Below, piece by piece: positions 20,214-56,125 of a stretch of DNA of 64,000 bases; the stretch's first letter is position 1, and every line of letters starts with the position of its first letter. This DNA comes from Shigella phage ESh19. The stretch lies in sequence record ON528729; one strand, 5' to 3'. A program made the position numbers and the translations under genes. Under the pieces are notes generated by a model that worked only from the letters and a program-made list of their open reading frames with translations, made no database searches and was not told where the DNA came from.

Positions 20214-20448
20214 TATTCACCTCTGCCATAAAGTTCTGTAGTGTTCCAACAGGTTTCATTTCATTGTCTTCAACCTTCATAATGAAAGGCATCTGACGAA
20301 CAGGTATCTTTGCAATATCCATCAGGTCACTTAGCTCATAATCTTTCCCAAGCATTCTAACAACATGGTCTAAGCCACGAGCCTGAGCAAAGTTCTTAGC
20401 AGTCACACACTGTGGGCATCCATCTTTTGAGTAAATTACATAAGTCAT
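20206..20448 (-). CDS. glutaredoxin/NrdH-like redoxin
   Basis: CPQC active-site motif near N-terminus, 80 aa, between nrdB and nrdD. Confidence 0.7.
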   Translation of the reverse strand: MTYVIYSKDGCPQCVTAKNFAQARGLDHVVRMLGKDYELSDLMDIAKIPVRQMPFIMKVEDNEMKPVGTLQNFMAEVNNA

Positions 20449-21521
20449 TAAGGAACCTCTAAAAATCCTGAATTTAAATCATCAACAACGGTATTCAAAA
20501 GGTACGCACCATTTTGTTGTTCTTGGTTAGCGTTTTGCTCTTTATCAATTTCCATCTTCTTAATCATATATTTCAAAGGTGGTTCTTTAGGAGCTACGAA
20601 GTCTCTTGGAATACCAAACATATCATACAATGGAGCAGCGTTGTAGTAAACCCATTCGTGAAGAAGTTTTGTATTCAAACCTACAACAGCACGTCCTTCA
20701 GAGAAGATATAATAAGACCATTTCTCTTCACTTTCAACTACTTCATCCAGAATTACTTTAATCTCTGGGAGTACTTGACGGAAAGCTTCTTGCCACTCTT
20801 CATCTTTCAAAGTTTCTTTTAATGCTTCGATATCAATCTTTGTGTGAATGATTTCGTCAAGCATAATTTTCTGTACTGCTTGTGCAATCCCTTGGAATTT
20901 ATCTTGTGCATCAAGTGCAAAGGTACATGCAAAGGATGCCATGAAGGAAATACCCTCAAGTGCTGTTACTGCAAAGAGACCTTTTAAGATTACTTTGTGG
21001 AAGTGTAAAGGGTCTTTCTCCATTAGCTCTTGACGAACATAGCTTAAACGATAGTTAATACCTTCGTCAAGTAATTCTGCCAGTGCTCTGTTCACAGTCT
21101 TCAATCTGTCCTGAACAGCAGCGTTCTGGTTAATCTCATCAAGGATTGTTTCAGGGTTCTTGATACACTGACGAACAATCTCTGAATAAGTTAGTGCATG
21201 AAGGTTCTCAATTTCTGATTGCTTCATGATAGCAGTTGCATAGATATCATCAGAGATGAATGGTGCAAATGCAAAAGCTAAACTCTTAGCAACCTGTGTA
21301 TCTGCTTCCCATTGCCATTTCAGAATCTCAAGCATTACACCAGACATTGATTGAGGGACACTCTCAAAGTCTAAACGTGACTGTTCAAATGGGAACTCAT
21401 CTTCAGACCAGTCTTGAGCTTTCTGCTGCTTATACAGTTCAAAGATTTTTGGATAGTGTTTATTAAGTGAATCAAAAGTCTTACGTTCTTCACCTAAGAA
21501 GATTGGATGTGAATTAATCAT
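20448..21521 (-). CDS. nrdB: ribonucleotide reductase class Ia small subunit
   Basis: di-iron ligand pattern (EGISFMASFA..., DEIIHT) and size 357 aa; adjacent to nrdA. Confidence 0.85.
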   Translation of the reverse strand: MINSHPIFLGEERKTFDSLNKHYPKIFELYKQQKAQDWSEDEFPFEQSRLDFESVPQSMSGVMLEILKWQWEADTQVAKSLAFAFAPFISDDIYATAIMKQSEIENLHALTYSEIVRQCIKNPETILDEINQNAAVQDRLKTVNRALAELLDEGINYRLSYVRQELMEKDPLHFHKVILKGLFAVTALEGISFMASFACTFALDAQDKFQGIAQAVQKIMLDEIIHTKIDIEALKETLKDEEWQEAFRQVLPEIKVILDEVVESEEKWSYYIFSEGRAVVGLNTKLLHEWVYYNAAPLYDMFGIPRDFVAPKEPPLKYMIKKMEIDKEQNANQEQQNGAYLLNTVVDDLNSGFLEVP

Positions 21522-38673: not shown

Positions 38674-39054
38674 ATGAAAAAGTTACTTGTTGGTGTCATT
38701 GCTATTGGTATGAGTTTTAGTGCAGCAGCTATGAAGATGCCTGAAGCAAACTTTAATGGTGTTGCTTTAGAATCTTGTAAGATTGTACAGAAAATCGCTT
38801 CAAATGCTGGAGAGTTGACTAAACCGTTGTCTGCTCAGACTGTTCAAGAAATGACTGATAAGATGGTTGACTACAACTACCATTTTATGGGAGATTACTA
38901 TGACAGATTAGCAGATGAGATGGTCACTCAGAACGTTGACCTTCTTGATAGCAAAGGTATTGAGACTGTAGAAGATGTGAAAGACAACTTTATGCGTGAG
39001 TCTTTCAAAGGTGTTCAATACTTTATTGAAAATCGTCACTGCATGGGTTTATAA
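38674..39054 (+). CDS. secreted protein of unknown function (126 aa)
   Basis: signal peptide MKKLLVGVIAIGMSFSAAA; start at ATG 38674 after GGAGG (track start is GTG). Confidence 0.55.
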   Translation: MKKLLVGVIAIGMSFSAAAMKMPEANFNGVALESCKIVQKIASNAGELTKPLSAQTVQEMTDKMVDYNYHFMGDYYDRLADEMVTQNVDLLDSKGIETVEDVKDNFMRESFKGVQYFIENRHCMGL

Positions 39055-52727: not shown

Positions 52728-52728
<1 letters not shown>

Positions 52729-54965
52729 TATTCATCCTCTGGGTAGCTAGAGTTTAACAGAATATCTTCCTGACTCTTATCAGTGATATCCACCATCTTA
52801 GTAGCAATCTGCTTACCATCCAGATTAAAGGAAACGTTAAGCGTCTGCTTAGTTTGCAATGGTAGTCCAGAGGGAGTCATCATCATAGGTGTCTGGTTAA
52901 ACTTGTTTGCAAAGTTATTTAGAGACTCAGACAGGTTGTTCATGATAATATCCCAATTTGACAAACCATTATCAACCCTCTGAATATTTCCAGAAGTGTC
53001 TGTGGTATATTGTGCAAACTGAAGTTGTCCATTCTGGTCAAAGAACATTGGACGTTTTGGATTAGTGATTCCTGAGATAGCTTCATTGAAAGGATTAGGT
53101 GTGTTAACCTCGTTAAATCTCTTTCCAGCATTCTTGTCAACTGAACCAGATAACATTAATGCAGAACCACCTACACCAAGAGCCATTCTGGTTGCTGATA
53201 CACCAGCCGTTGTAGCTGCTGTTTCTGCTGCTGTAGTTAACCCAAACTTCTGTGCAATCTTAGCTAAGATACCTTCTTCAAAAATACTCTTGACAAATGC
53301 TACAGTACCACCAAAGATTTTAGCAACTTTTGTAATAGCTGCAATTGAAACACCGATAGCGGTGAACGTAGCAACTAACTCAGCAGAGTCCTTGATTAGT
53401 TTCTGTTGACTAGCATCTAATTCCTTGAAATAACCCATTGAGGTGTAGTACAATGAAGAAATGCGGTACATGATATCTGTCACGAAATCTAGGAGGTTAC
53501 TAGCACCTTTTAAGAGGTAACCAATACCTGTACCAAGTGCTTCAGATGTACCAAGGGAACCTTGCAAGAACATTGCAACTGAGTTAGAGAGTTGTGAAAT
53601 ACCTTCGCTAGAGTTGTTAAACAAAGCTACAAGGGTGTTATCCCACATTGCCTTTGCTTGACCCATAGAGGTAGCTGTCTGCTTAGAAACTGCATTCATA
53701 CCACCTGCTGCTTCAACAAGCTCTCTCATTTTTTCTGAGACTTTTGGTAGAACGTCTTTTGCAAGAAGCTGACCATCTTTCATCATCTTGTCAAGTTCTT
53801 GTGGAGTTTTACCAATAGCATCAGCAAATAACTGAACAGCACCTGCCAAACGGTCACCTAACTGTCCACGAAGTTCTTCAGCCTGAATCTTACCTTTAGA
53901 TGCCATTTGCTGGAAAGCAACCATGATACCTTTCAAGTCTTCATCAGAAGCACCACGAATACGTGAGAACATAGCAGCATTCTTATAGAACTCTTGAGTT
54001 CCTTTAAAACCTAACTCTGGTTGAGCACCAGCAGCGAAGTTTGAGTACTGCTTCATAGTGTCTGTGTAGTTCTGACCAATCTGGTGAGAGAACGTAGCAG
54101 CGAACATTCTAGCTTGCTGTGTATCCCCTCCAAAGATAGCTGTTGAGGCTAACTGTGCAGACTGTCTCTTTACACCTGCATCAATAGTCTTCTGAGCTAA
54201 TTCCAGCATAGCATACGCTGAAACAAAACCACCTACAAGCTGTCTTAGTGAAGAGTTTGCTCTGTCTTGTAACCAAGCTGACTCTCTGACTGCCTTAAGT
54301 CTAGCATTTTCTGCAATAACCCAACGTTTGGTAGTGTCAATGAGTTTCTTGACTTCCATCTCATACTCACCAACTTTACCACTACCTTTGTACTTATTAT
54401 AGATTCCTTGTAAGCTTCCTCTGAAGGAAGTAGCCATTTGGTTACCTTGTCCACCAATTGTTTCAAGACGACGAGTCAAACCAGAGTAGAAGTTGTTATT
54501 AAACATTCTTTCCATTTGTCTTTGAGCAATATCAGGTCTAACTCTAGGTGAACCACCACCTCCAACCGGAGGGATAGTATTACCACGGCCTCTACCAACT
54601 CCACCACGAACATTAACTTTACCTTCAACATTCATAGCTTGTCTTAGAGCCTTATTAATCTCTTTGGCTGTTTTCTTACCCTGTGTTTCTAATCTACGAA
54701 GTGATTTTACACCTTGTGAATCTAAATTCATAGCATTGTTTAGGGATTTATTGATTCTGCCTGAAGCAGTCTGAGCGTTTTTTACAAGTCTGTTTAGAGC
54801 GTCTTGTGAACTTCTATTAGGCTTCACATCAAAGGCTTTATTGATATTGCGTTCAATACGTTGAGCAGACTGCATAGCCATTTTCTCAACTCTTTGCAAA
54901 CCCTTAATAACCTTTTCACTGAATCCAAGTTCAACAATAAAACTATCAACTGTATATTGTGCCAT
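52728..54965 (-). CDS. tail tape measure protein
   Basis: 745 aa, Gly/Ala-rich hydrophobic segments, preceded by chaperone pair. Confidence 0.7.
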
Positions 54966-55192
54966 TAAATTTTACCTGCTTTTCTGAGTTCGTTGTAAGC
55001 CATTTCTTCTTTATATGACTTCTGGATTTCTAAATATTGACGTAGAGATAATAAATCAACGAAGGTCATATCAAAAAGTTGGTTGAGTGTTTCTTTACAC
55101 CCATCCATACCATAAATAGCAAGCACAAATTTCATCTCATCTGCTTCATCATAAGTTGCCTTTACAGCCCCGTCAGTCAGCGGGGTCTGCAT
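54965..55192 (-). CDS. tail assembly chaperone, frameshift extension ORF
   Basis: -1 frame relative to 55201-55602 ORF; frame open upstream across slippery heptamer. Confidence 0.5.
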   Translation of the reverse strand: MQTPLTDGAVKATYDEADEMKFVLAIYGMDGCKETLNQLFDMTFVDLLSLRQYLEIQKSYKEEMAYNELRKAGKI

Positions 55193-55200
55193 AGAATAAC

Positions 55201-55602
55201 TTAAGCTTCCTGTTGAGAAGTTAGGCTTTTGAAAATGCTTGCCTCGAAAAAACTTCCGAAGTTTGCCTCCAAAGCAAAAGCTAAAAAGTCAATAAATTCA
55301 CCGTAGTTCGCTTGGAAGTAACTATCAATTTTCAGTGGGAAGTCATTAACTGTTGCCCCCTGAAATAGTGTCTCTGCCATTGCATCAATATCCAGTTCAT
55401 CAACCTTTTCAAAGCAAGCTTCTACAAGCTCTTTAAAGGGAACTTTCACCTCTCCATCTTTTGAGGTTAGTCCAGAGAACATCTGTGCAAATGCTGGTAC
55501 AACTGCTTTACCAAGCTTCATAGAGATACGGATACCATCTCTAGCTCCAAGAAGAATAATAGTTACCTTCTTGCCATTAATCATTTTAGTTTCAGTTTTC
55601 AT
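55201..55602 (-). CDS. tail assembly chaperone
   Basis: 133 aa immediately upstream of tape measure; contains T_TTT_TTC slippery site near 3' end. Confidence 0.55.
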   Translation of the reverse strand: MKTETKMINGKKVTIILLGARDGIRISMKLGKAVVPAFAQMFSGLTSKDGEVKVPFKELVEACFEKVDELDIDAMAETLFQGATVNDFPLKIDSYFQANYGEFIDFLAFALEANFGSFFEASIFKSLTSQQEA

Positions 55603-55639
55603 TGTGATTCCTTAAAAGTTCTGGTATAAAAACACAAAA

Positions 55640-55665
55640 GGGGAAGACCTTTTACAGTCTCCCCC
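55640..55665 (-). terminator. rho-independent terminator after tail tube gene
   Basis: GGGGGAGAC-UGUAAAAG-GUCUUCCCC + U-run on minus transcript. Confidence 0.5.
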
Positions 55666-55678
55666 TTATTAGGATTTG

Positions 55679-56125
55679 TTAAACGCTTGACGCAGGGATT
55701 GTTGAAGCGTAGTCTAACTTCTCACAACCGAAAATCCAAGTTTTAGAGTTCTGGTAACGTCCAAGTTCAATCTGTGGAAGCTCTTGCAACCAAGCATTGA
55801 TACCTGTAGCCAGTACTGAACCGGATGGGTCATAAATTACGAAGTTAGATGAAATGTCTTCTTCAAGTTCCATGTCATCTTGTTTAGCTTGAATTGCAGA
55901 AAGCATCTGGTTAGATAGAGAAGTCTGCATTAGCTCAATCTCAATCGTACCTGTCTTGTCTGCATTTCTTGTCAGAGCTACTTGACCACCTGCACCTACA
56001 ACTGGCGTAACAAGTGGAGAAGTTCTCTGAAGACGCAAGAATGAGTCTGGTGCAAAACCTTCAATGGCAATGCCATTCCAGCTACAAACTACATCTTTAG
56101 GGGAATATTGCTGATACATAGCCAT
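55679..56125 (-). CDS. tail tube protein (by synteny)
   Basis: 148 aa between sheath and chaperones. Confidence 0.45.
   Translation of the reverse strand: MAMYQQYSPKDVVCSWNGIAIEGFAPDSFLRLQRTSPLVTPVVGAGGQVALTRNADKTGTIEIELMQTSLSNQMLSAIQAKQDDMELEEDISSNFVIYDPSGSVLATGINAWLQELPQIELGRYQNSKTWIFGCEKLDYASTIPASSV

What the first reader, a model, noticed from the sequence alone, without database searches (positions are those of the whole stretch)
54965..55602. Predicted -1 programmed ribosomal frameshift in the tail assembly chaperone pair
The 133 aa chaperone ORF contains the slippery heptamer T_TTT_TTC (minus strand, plus coordinates 55246-55252) in the correct X_XXY_YYZ phase about 15 codons before its stop; the -1 frame is open from there through the downstream 75 aa ORF to 54965, predicting a ~212 aa fusion (…FGSFF-RGKHFQKPNFSTGSLSYSMQTPLTDG…) in addition to the short product, as in the conserved G/GT mechanism upstream of tape measure genes.
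Basis: partly seen in the sequence, partly recalled or inferred. Interest (0 to 1): 0.45.

Follow-up and report, generated by a model that had tools for sequence, protein, structure and literature searches.

The report
Known phage tail-chaperone ribosomal frameshift site
The two small genes just ahead of the tape measure gene of this FelixO1-like (Mooglevirus) phage are almost certainly joined by a classic -1 ribosomal frameshift at TTTTTTC; the prediction is correct, but it is already annotated and published for close relatives, so it is ordinary.

Summary
T_TTT_TTC lies at 55252-55246 (minus strand) in X_XXY_YYZ phase, at codons 117-119 of the 133-aa tail assembly chaperone. The -1 frame is open from 55288 to the stop at 54967-54965, giving a 212-aa fusion that ends on the tape measure ATG.

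The window is a Mooglevirus (Ounavirinae), 98.7% identical to Shigella phage SFPB.

Comparative evidence is strong:
- The Ser-Phe-Phe codons are always AGT TTT TTY, and the -1 frame stays open for 90-99 codons, in every relative carrying the Ser-Phe-Phe motif, down to about 28% identity.
- Several lineages (Erwinia, Alteromonas and marine clades) have no usable start codon for the downstream domain.
- Synonymous variation collapses from the slip site onward (4/16 columns versus 55/69, p=6e-5).
- No downstream RNA structure is supported, as in lambda G/GT.

It is not new. GenBank/RefSeq records of Michonne and Mushroom carry the joined CDS. The Moogle, Michonne and Mijalis genome announcements state the frameshift. 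A 2025 paper analysed the motif across 231 related phages.

No experiment has shown the fusion. Transcriptional slippage on the T6 run would give the same protein. Sf14 particle mass spectrometry detected the downstream product but not the chaperone.

The parts
55638..55667 (-). Intrinsic terminator-like hairpin (12-bp stem, then TTGTGTTTTT) between the tail tube gene and the chaperone gene. It probably lowers transcription into the chaperone and tape measure genes.
   Evidence: A terminator is annotated at the same place in Citrobacter phage Michonne.
55201..55602 (-). Tail assembly chaperone, short form (G-like, TAC-N), 133 aa, zero frame. AAGGA Shine-Dalgarno at 55613-55609.
   Evidence: PF21822 Phage_TAC_15, E=4.5e-20. 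phrog_1613 tail assembly chaperone, E=1e-48. Sequence read.
55266..55270 (-). Internal GGAGG, 13 nt 5' of the slippery heptamer. It is a possible Shine-Dalgarno-like stimulator. It is conserved in the enterobacterial clade only.
   Evidence: Sequence and alignment. Absent in the Erwinia, Alteromonas and Pseudomonas relatives. Its function is inferred, not tested.
55246..55252 (-). Slippery heptamer T_TTT_TTC (codons Ser117 AGT, Phe118 TTT, Phe119 TTC). This is the site of the -1 shift; both P-site and A-site tRNAs would be tRNA-Phe.
   Evidence: Phase verified. Invariant in 32 distinct related genes. AGT TTT TTY in all relatives carrying the Ser-Phe-Phe motif. Michonne's annotated slippage point falls inside it.
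55201..55245 (-). Dual-coded stretch: the C-terminus of the short form (EASIFKSLTSQQEA) in frame 0, and the start of the linker of the long form in frame -1. It shows strongly reduced synonymous variation.
   Evidence: Synonymous variation in 4/16 conserved columns in codons 113-128 versus 55/69 in codons 1-104, Fisher p=6e-5.
54965..55246 (-). -1 frame extension of 93 codons plus stop (T-like, C-terminal domain of the long form). It contains the separately annotated 75-aa ORF 55192-54965. The predicted long product is 212 aa.
   Evidence: phrog_4963 tail assembly chaperone, E=9e-52. Homologous -1 frame products in all clades.
52728..54965 (-). Tape measure protein, 745 aa. Its ATG overlaps the stop of the -1 frame extension (TAATG).
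   Evidence: PF20155 TMP_3. phrog_4036, 1491.9 bits..
55679..56125 (-). Tail tube protein, 148 aa, immediately upstream of the chaperone pair.
   Evidence: PF11681 and phrog_280. The homolog Sf14 gp40 is listed as the tail tube protein in Table 1 of the Sf14 structure paper (PMC11821841).
56140..57492 (-). Tail sheath protein, 450 aa.
   Evidence: phrog_205 tail sheath, E=1.2e-118, and DUF3383. Sf14 gp39.

Best explanation
This is a lambda G/GT-type programmed -1 ribosomal frameshift in the tail assembly chaperone gene of a Mooglevirus (FelixO1-like myophage).

Most ribosomes translate 55602-55201 to the TAA and make the 133-aa chaperone. A minority slip back one base when tRNA-Phe occupies both the P site (UUU) and the A site (UUC) of U_UUU_UUC at 55252-55246. 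Both tRNAs re-pair perfectly with UUU/UUU. Those ribosomes continue in the -1 frame to 54965 and make a 212-aa protein with the same N-terminal 119 residues plus a 93-residue C-terminal domain.

By analogy with lambda gpG/gpGT and P2 E/E+E', the shared N-terminal part coats the tape measure protein, and the extra C-terminal domain recruits the tail tube protein. The fixed slip frequency sets the ratio of the two forms.

What is shown: the sequence anatomy, homology to chaperone families, and evolutionary conservation of the slip site and of the -1 frame.

What is inferred: the slip is ribosomal, it is of low efficiency, no stimulatory RNA structure is needed, and the roles of the two domains.
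For: - Anatomy verified.
- Gene order is sheath, tube, chaperone, -1 ORF, tape measure.
- The upstream ORF matches PF21822 Phage_TAC_15 above the Pfam cut-off. Both parts match PHROG tail assembly chaperone families.
- The heptamer, in phase, with an open -1 frame ending at the tape measure start, is present in the 34 related loci analysed (31 IMG/VR loci fetched plus FelixO1, Erwinia phage Coenus and Alteromonas phage PT11-V22), checked in detail for FelixO1, Coenus and PT11-V22. These span 98% to 32% amino-acid identity.
- In 12 loci from a pattern-based search that carry Ser-Phe-Phe (28-46% identity) the codons are always AGT TTT TTY and the -1 frame is open for 92-99 codons. Given the amino acids, a T_TTT_TTY arrangement is expected only about 0.31 of the time per lineage from this genome's codon usage, and specifically AGT TTT about 0.10.
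- The first start codon in the T frame lies at T-codon 56-61 of 92-99 in the Erwinia, Alteromonas, L071, L075 and L082 lineages, after most of the conserved domain. One Felix-like genome (L025) has ATA where its relatives have ATG. The ATG at 55192 has no Shine-Dalgarno at usable spacing.
- Synonymous variation drops from 55/69 to 4/16 conserved columns around and after the slip site (p=6e-5). This is expected only if both frames are translated from the slip site on.
- In E. coli, UUY A-site codons and all-pyrimidine heptamers are among the frameshift-prone classes (PMC4066793).
- The same join is annotated in Michonne (note 'ribosomal slippage (47149)', inside the heptamer) and in Mushroom. 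It is stated in PMC4319497, PMC4591319 and PMC5543628 and analysed across 231 Andersonviridae in PMC12846349.
- Sf14 particle mass spectrometry detected the product of the downstream ORF, so that frame is translated (PMC11821841).
Against: - No fusion protein or junction peptide has been reported for any member of this phage group in the papers I found.
- The Sf14 mass spectrometry detected the downstream ORF product (gp42) but not the chaperone gp41. That is not what a fusion alone would predict. It leaves room for independent translation of the 75-aa ORF in Mooglevirus, where an ATG lies 8 nt after the chaperone stop.
- No stimulatory downstream structure was found, so efficiency may be low.
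- The in-phase heptamer by itself is not rare.
- The distant loci were retrieved with a peptide pattern that fixes Ser-Phe/Val-Phe. Amino-acid conservation there is by ascertainment; only the codon choice and the frame openness are independent evidence.
- Ribosomal and transcriptional slippage cannot be told apart from sequence.
Confidence: 0.85

Rival explanations
1. The same 212-aa fusion is made, but by transcriptional slippage. RNA polymerase adds one extra U on the T6 run (55252-55247), and ordinary translation of that mRNA reads into the -1 frame.
For: A +1 U insertion gives exactly the same protein (...SFFRGK...), by inference. The conserved core across all clades is a T run (T5 to T7), not always a canonical heptamer: the Pseudomonas relatives have only G_GTT_TTT_C. 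A small conserved palindrome, AACTT-NNN-AAGTT, abuts the run.
Against: From established knowledge, runs of 6 are generally too short for appreciable slippage by bacterial RNA polymerase; efficient sites have 8-9 or more A/T. The palindrome is only 5 A/U-rich pairs and follows largely from the conserved Asn-Phe-x-Ser-Phe codons. The run is always placed so that tRNA-Phe can re-pair in -1, the Ser codon is always AGT, and the closest experimentally studied analogues (lambda, P2) use ribosomal frameshifting (PMC5009743).
Confidence: 0.07
2. There is no recoding. The pair is two separate genes, with the 75-aa ORF (55192-54965) translated from its own ATG by coupling to termination of the chaperone. 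The T run would be a by-product of the conserved Ser-Phe-Phe residues.
For: Many records annotate two separate genes (Sf14, SFPB, FelixO1, HP1). Moogle-, Susp- and Felixounaviruses have an ATG 2-8 nt after the chaperone stop. Sf14 mass spectrometry found gp42 but not gp41. Pseudomonas relatives have GGAGG plus ATG ahead of the downstream ORF.
Against: There is no start codon before the second half of the conserved domain in five other lineages, and ATA replaces ATG in L025. There is no Shine-Dalgarno at 55192, and a GC-rich hairpin starts right after that ATG. Invariant AGT TTT TTY codon choice and suppressed synonymous change in the stretch between the slip site and the chaperone stop are unexplained if that stretch is read in one frame only. 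The -1 frame is free of stops for 18 codons upstream of the ATG, although this frame carries about 0.15 stops per codon elsewhere in the gene.
Confidence: 0.06

Closest known systems
Citrobacter phage Michonne CPT_Michonne71/70 (KT001916). Same arrangement in Moogle, Mordin and Mijalis, and in Salmonella phage Mushroom (NC_041923)
   Same: Same genus or subfamily and about 96% nucleotide identity over this region. Identical heptamer at the identical codon. The joined CDS is annotated with 'ribosomal slippage' inside the heptamer. The frameshift is stated in the genome announcements.
   Different: Nothing of substance: a few substitutions, for example GAAGGT versus GAAGCT before the stop. In those phages too it is an annotation, not an experiment.
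Bacteriophage lambda gpG/gpGT (Levin, Hendrix & Casjens 1993; Xu, Hendrix & Duda 2004, 2013, 2014)
   Same: Two ORFs between the major tail protein gene and the tape measure gene. [quoted passage not shown] The review gives a G:GT molar ratio of about 30:1 and says neither product is in virions (PMC5009743). From memory of Levin et al. 1993, no RNA stimulator is needed.
   Different: A different slippery sequence (lambda G_GGA_AAG, from memory, versus T_TTT_TTC). A siphovirus versus a contractile-tailed phage. No detectable sequence similarity was tested or claimed. Ratio, necessity and absence from virions are unknown here; in Sf14 the T-part was detected in particle preparations.
Bacteriophage P2 gpE/gpE+E' (Christie et al. 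2002; cited from memory and via PMC5009743)
   Same: A myovirus. The chaperone pair lies upstream of the tape measure gene. -1 slip on a T-rich heptamer (T_TTT_TTG, from memory).
   Different: A different protein family. The review reports efficiency 2-3 fold higher than lambda for P2; it is unknown here.
TAC-N/TAC-NC locus of Pakpunavirus Adele and other Vandenendeviridae (PMC12846349)
   Same: A homologous chaperone (26-29% identity). The homologous site is ...NFGS[FV]F, with a conserved GTTTTT core and the -1 frame open to the tape measure gene. [quoted passage not shown]
   Different: Those phages have only G_GTT_TTT_C, a Z_ZZN tetramer rather than a full heptamer, and a strong GGAGG plus ATG ahead of the downstream ORF.

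Membership tests
Frameshifted tail assembly chaperone pair (lambda G/GT type, Xu-Hendrix-Duda 2004) | Two ORFs placed directly between the major tail/tube protein gene and the tape measure gene | tested here: met
   Order on the minus strand: sheath 57492-56140, tube 56125-55679, chaperone 55602-55201, 75-aa ORF 55192-54965, tape measure 54965-52728.
Frameshifted tail assembly chaperone pair (lambda G/GT type, Xu-Hendrix-Duda 2004) | The second ORF is in the -1 frame of the first, with an uninterrupted -1 frame reaching back into the first ORF | tested here: met
   The -1 frame is open from 55288 to 54968, with an 85-nt overlap with the chaperone ORF. The +1 frame is closed.
Frameshifted tail assembly chaperone pair (lambda G/GT type, Xu-Hendrix-Duda 2004) | A slippery sequence in X_XXY_YYZ phase inside the overlap | tested here: met
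   T_TTT_TTC at 55252-55246, phase verified. It is the only canonical in-phase heptamer in the overlap.
Frameshifted tail assembly chaperone pair (lambda G/GT type, Xu-Hendrix-Duda 2004) | Slip site and frame arrangement conserved in divergent relatives | tested here: met
   All loci checked that carry Ser-Phe-Phe, down to about 28% identity, keep AGT TTT TTY and 90-99 open -1 codons. The Pseudomonas clade keeps only GTTTTT.
Frameshifted tail assembly chaperone pair (lambda G/GT type, Xu-Hendrix-Duda 2004) | Two proteins are actually made, the short one in large excess over the long one | not testable with these tools
   Needs protein analysis or a reporter assay. I found no published measurement for this phage group.
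Frameshifted tail assembly chaperone pair (lambda G/GT type, Xu-Hendrix-Duda 2004) | Both forms are required for tail assembly and are absent from the finished virion | not testable with these tools
   Only literature bears on it. Sf14 particle mass spectrometry lists gp42 (T part) as detected and gp41 as not detected (PMC11821841). This neither fits nor clearly contradicts the lambda rule; from the methods, the preparation was pelleted lysate.
Pfam PF21822 Phage_TAC_15 / PHROG 1613 (tail assembly chaperone) | Sequence match above the curated threshold | tested here: met
   72.9 bits against a cut-off of 22, E=4.5e-20, residues 9-122. phrog_1613, E=1e-48. The T part matches phrog_4963, E=9e-52.
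Stimulated bacterial -1 frameshift sites (dnaX / IS911 type) | Stable stem-loop or pseudoknot 5-9 nt downstream of the heptamer | tested here: not met
   Folding z-scores of 0.60, -1.55 and -1.00 for three downstream windows. RNAalifold consensus is -1.11 kcal/mol with no compensatory pair in 9 sequences. No Rfam match.
Stimulated bacterial -1 frameshift sites (dnaX / IS911 type) | Shine-Dalgarno-like sequence about 10-14 nt upstream of the heptamer | tested here: inconclusive
   GGAGG at 55270-55266, 13 nt upstream, is kept in all enterobacterial relatives through TTG/CTG changes. It is absent in the Erwinia, Alteromonas and Pseudomonas clades. The spacing rule is from memory of Larsen et al. 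1994.
Transcriptional slippage sites | Long homopolymeric A/T run (typically 8-9 or more) or a strong hairpin next to a short run | tested here: not met
   The run is T6 (T5-T7 in relatives). The adjacent palindrome is only 5 A/U-rich pairs. The length threshold is from general knowledge.

The most novel reading that the evidence does not exclude
The least ordinary reading still allowed is that, in these contractile-tailed phages, the downstream (T) domain is not just a transient chaperone part. It would be made by two routes, the frameshift fusion and independent or coupled initiation at the ATG at 55192. A T-containing product would stay with the particle, as hinted by Sf14 mass spectrometry, which detected gp42 but not gp41. 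Alternatively, the shift would be transcriptional rather than ribosomal.
Probability: 0.1. Interest if true: 0.35.

Novelty: already known. Interest (0 to 1): 0.1.

Why it matters
The main value is for annotation. Many public records of this phage group still list the downstream part as a separate small gene, or misname the pair. Examples are Sf14, SFPB, FelixO1 RefSeq, HP1 and the Erwinia and Alteromonas phages. The evidence says it is the C-terminal domain of a frameshift product.

The family is also a clean comparative example. The slip site codons AGT TTT TTY are held fixed while the proteins diverge to about 28% identity.

It does not open a new question. The mechanism and its role in tail assembly are textbook for lambda and P2.

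Tried and rejected
- Downstream stimulatory structure. Single-sequence folds of three downstream windows are not better than shuffles. The alignment fold over 9 diverse sequences gives -1.1 kcal/mol and no covariation. Rejected.
- Rfam scan of 54800-55800. Only a chance miRNA match at E=0.51.
- NCBIfam. No match for either part.
- PDB sequence search with the 212-aa fusion. Nothing meaningful, best E=0.46.
- Structure prediction. Single-sequence AlphaFold2 of the two parts gave pLDDT 51.8 and 50.2, too poor to use, so no fold search was run.
- Sf14 supplementary files. No peptide-level data are held.
- A numeric frameshift efficiency for U_UUU_UUC in E. coli from PMC4066793. Only general rules are in the text; the values are in a figure.
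- Other slip candidates in the overlap. C_TTT_TTA at 55288-55282 is in phase at the very start of the open -1 frame, but it needs a mismatched P-site re-pairing and is not conserved (TTC TTA in relatives). Rejected.
- +1 frameshift. The +1 frame is closed. Rejected.
- tRNA genes that could modulate slippage. None in the window.
- The palindrome AACTT-NNN-AAGTT at the 5' edge of the T run was considered as an element of its own. It largely follows from the conserved Asn-Phe-x-Ser-Phe codons and is broken in L072 and L078. Not pursued.
Full report
**What is there**

On the minus strand the window carries a contractile-tail gene block:
- sheath, 57492-56140
- tube, 56125-55679
- a terminator-like hairpin, 55667-55638
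- a 133-aa ORF, 55602-55201
- a 75-aa ORF, 55192-54965
- a 745-aa tape measure gene, 54965-52728

The 133-aa protein matches Pfam PF21822 (Phage_TAC_15, tail assembly chaperone) at 72.9 bits against a cut-off of 22. The tape measure protein matches PF20155. PHROGs calls both small ORFs tail assembly chaperones: phrog_1613 at E=1e-48 and phrog_4963 at E=2.4e-51.

The region is 98.7% identical to Shigella phage SFPB. It is 96-98% identical to Sf14, Michonne, Mordin and Moogle, so the window is a Mooglevirus (Ounavirinae, FelixO1-like).

**Check of the observation**

Reading and recomputing the sequence confirms every detail.
- TTTTTTC lies at 55252-55246, beginning at the third base of Ser117 (AGT TTT TTC). 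That is X_XXY_YYZ phase.
- Fourteen sense codons follow in frame 0.
- The -1 frame has 16 stops in the first 104 codons of the gene and then none until the TAA at 54967-54965.
- The predicted long product is 212 aa, with the junction FGSFF-RGKHFQKPNFSTGSLSYSMQTPLTDG.
- Its stop overlaps the tape measure ATG (TAATG). The +1 frame is closed.

**Is it more than chance?**

The heptamer alone is not. The 66 long ORFs of the window hold 52 in-phase canonical heptamers in 18,126 codons, about 1 per 350 codons. This one has the longest -1 extension of the 52.

Two other heptamers near gene ends also run into the next gene in -1: 20478-20472 on the minus strand and 39045-39051 on the plus strand. There the downstream genes start with their own ATG at the junction. 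I take these as background.

**Comparative evidence**

- In the 34 related loci analysed, the heptamer is present in phase and the -1 frame runs to the tape measure start wherever the locus extends that far. These are 31 IMG/VR loci fetched with the chaperone plus FelixO1, Erwinia phage Coenus and Alteromonas phage PT11-V22 (checked in detail). They span 98% to 32% protein identity.
- A second, profile-based fetch brought in more distant marine and other contigs. All loci with Ser-Phe-Phe, down to about 28% identity, encode it as AGT TTT TTY and have 92-99 open -1 codons.
- That fetch used a peptide pattern that fixes the amino acids. Only the codon choice and the frame openness count as evidence there. 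From this genome's codon usage, T_TTT_TTY is expected about 0.31 of the time per lineage, and AGT TTT about 0.10.
- The Pseudomonas relatives (Nankokuvirus and Pakpunavirus type) keep only G_GTT_TTT_C at the homologous site, with the -1 frame still open.

**Can the downstream domain be made on its own?**

- In Moogle-, Susp- and Felixounaviruses an ATG lies 2-8 nt after the chaperone stop, but without a Shine-Dalgarno.
- In one Felix-like genome (L025) that ATG is ATA.
- In the Erwinia, Alteromonas, L071, L075 and L082 lineages the first ATG/GTG/TTG in the T frame is at codon 56-61 of 92-99. That is after most of the conserved domain (alignment). There the domain can be expressed only as a frameshift extension.

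**Dual-coding signature**

Among 32 distinct chaperone genes, 55 of 69 columns with a conserved amino acid show synonymous variation in codons 1-104. Only 4 of 16 do in codons 113-128 (Fisher p=6e-5). Codons 115-119 and 121-126 are invariant.

The block AAGTTTTTTCGARGCAAGCATTTTCAAAARCCT is shared by enterobacterial and Erwinia phages whose proteins are only about 44% identical. This is expected if the stretch between the slip site and the chaperone stop is translated in both frames. It is not expected if the downstream ORF starts at its own ATG beyond that stop.

**Stimulators**

No downstream structure is supported. The fold z-scores are 0.60, -1.55 and -1.00. The alignment fold gives -1.11 kcal/mol with no compensatory pair. 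Rfam finds nothing.

A GGAGG lies 13 nt upstream of the heptamer (55270-55266). It is kept in the enterobacterial clade through TTG/CTG changes but is absent in the other clades. It may act as a dnaX-like Shine-Dalgarno stimulator; this is inference only.

In E. coli, UUY A-site codons and homogeneous pyrimidine heptamers are among the frameshift-prone motifs (PMC4066793).

**Mechanism proposed**

tRNA-Phe in both the P and A sites slips from UUU-UUC to UUU-UUU. A minority of ribosomes then continue in -1 to make the 212-aa long form.

By analogy with lambda gpG/gpGT, the common N-terminal part binds the tape measure protein and the C-terminal domain binds the tube protein (review PMC5009743). 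The anatomy and conservation are shown. The ribosomal nature of the slip, its efficiency and the domain roles are inferred.

**What is already known**

- GenBank KT001916 (Michonne) annotates a joined CDS with 'ribosomal slippage (47149)'. That position maps inside the same heptamer.
- RefSeq NC_041923 (Mushroom, Felixounavirus) also has the joined CDS.
- The Moogle, Michonne and Mijalis genome announcements state the -1 frameshift.
- A 2025 paper on Pseudomonas phage Adele analysed the locus in 159 Vandenendeviridae and 231 Andersonviridae. [quoted passage not shown]

The finding is therefore correct but already known. Many other records still annotate two separate genes.

**Caveats and rivals**

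I found no experimental demonstration of the fusion in this group.

Sf14 particle mass spectrometry lists the downstream ORF product (gp42) as detected and the chaperone (gp41) as not detected (PMC11821841). This shows the -1 frame region is translated. It does not show a fusion, and it is compatible with some independent translation in Mooglevirus. No peptide-level data were available.

Transcriptional slippage adding one U on the T6 run would give the identical protein. It cannot be excluded from sequence. The run is short, and the codon phase fits ribosomal slippage.

**What led nowhere**

- Structure prediction was uninformative.
- PDB and NCBIfam searches gave nothing.
- There are no tRNA genes in the window.

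**Verdict**

Novelty: already known. Interest: low.

Noticed in passing
window 55165-55189 (minus strand): A GC-rich hairpin (CAG-A-CCCCG / CGGGG-CTG, loop CTGACTGA) starts right after the ATG of the 75-aa ORF (55192-55190). Loci L008 and L009 carry a paired change, CCCCG...CGGGG to CCCCA...TGGGG, both synonymous. Felixounaviruses have lost the hairpin. It is too far (about 57 nt) from the heptamer to stimulate slippage. It could hinder independent initiation at that ATG.
   Followed up: partly
window 55638-55667 (minus strand): A strong terminator-like hairpin (12-bp stem followed by a T run) lies between the tail tube gene and the chaperone gene. It is also annotated in phage Michonne. It suggests the chaperone and tape measure genes receive fewer transcripts than the sheath and tube genes.
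   Followed up: partly
window 55251-55263 (minus strand): A small palindrome, AACTT-CGG-AAGTT, overlaps the first two T of the slippery run. Its arms are kept with different loops in Erwinia (CTC) and Alteromonas (CCA) relatives, and with C-to-T (G·U-compatible) changes in L008 and L009. It is weakened in L072 and L078. It is probably a by-product of the conserved Asn-Phe-x-Ser-Phe codons.
   Followed up: partly
L037 1824-1831 and L079/L080 (Pseudomonas phages G1 and relatives): The homologous site is G_GTT_TTT_C, with no canonical heptamer. The downstream ORF has a strong GGAGG plus ATG of its own. Expression of the long form, if any, may work differently there: single-tRNA slippage, or independent translation.
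   Followed up: partly
Literature on Sf14 (PMC11821841, Table 1); corresponds to window 54965-55192 and 55201-55602: Particle mass spectrometry detected the product of the downstream small ORF (gp42) but not the chaperone (gp41). This is unlike lambda, where neither G nor GT is in virions. It could reflect contamination of a pelleted lysate, or real retention of a T-containing product.
   Followed up: partly
window 20472-20478 (minus strand) and 39045-39051 (plus strand): Two other in-phase heptamers lie within 10 codons of a gene end, with a -1 frame that continues into the next gene. T_TTA_AAT sits at the end of a 357-aa ORF (20448-21521) ahead of an 80-aa ORF. G_GGT_TTA sits at the end of a 128-aa ORF ahead of a 67-aa ORF. 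The downstream genes have their own ATG at the junction, so I treated these as chance.
   Followed up: partly
L003 (Shigella phage SFPB, OQ031072) 210-1561, 2098-2499 and 2819 onward: The closest public record has annotation oddities. The sheath gene is split into two ORFs, the chaperone is labelled 'tape measure protein', and the tape measure gene starts 83 nt later than in relatives. These look like sequencing or annotation problems in that record.
   Followed up: no
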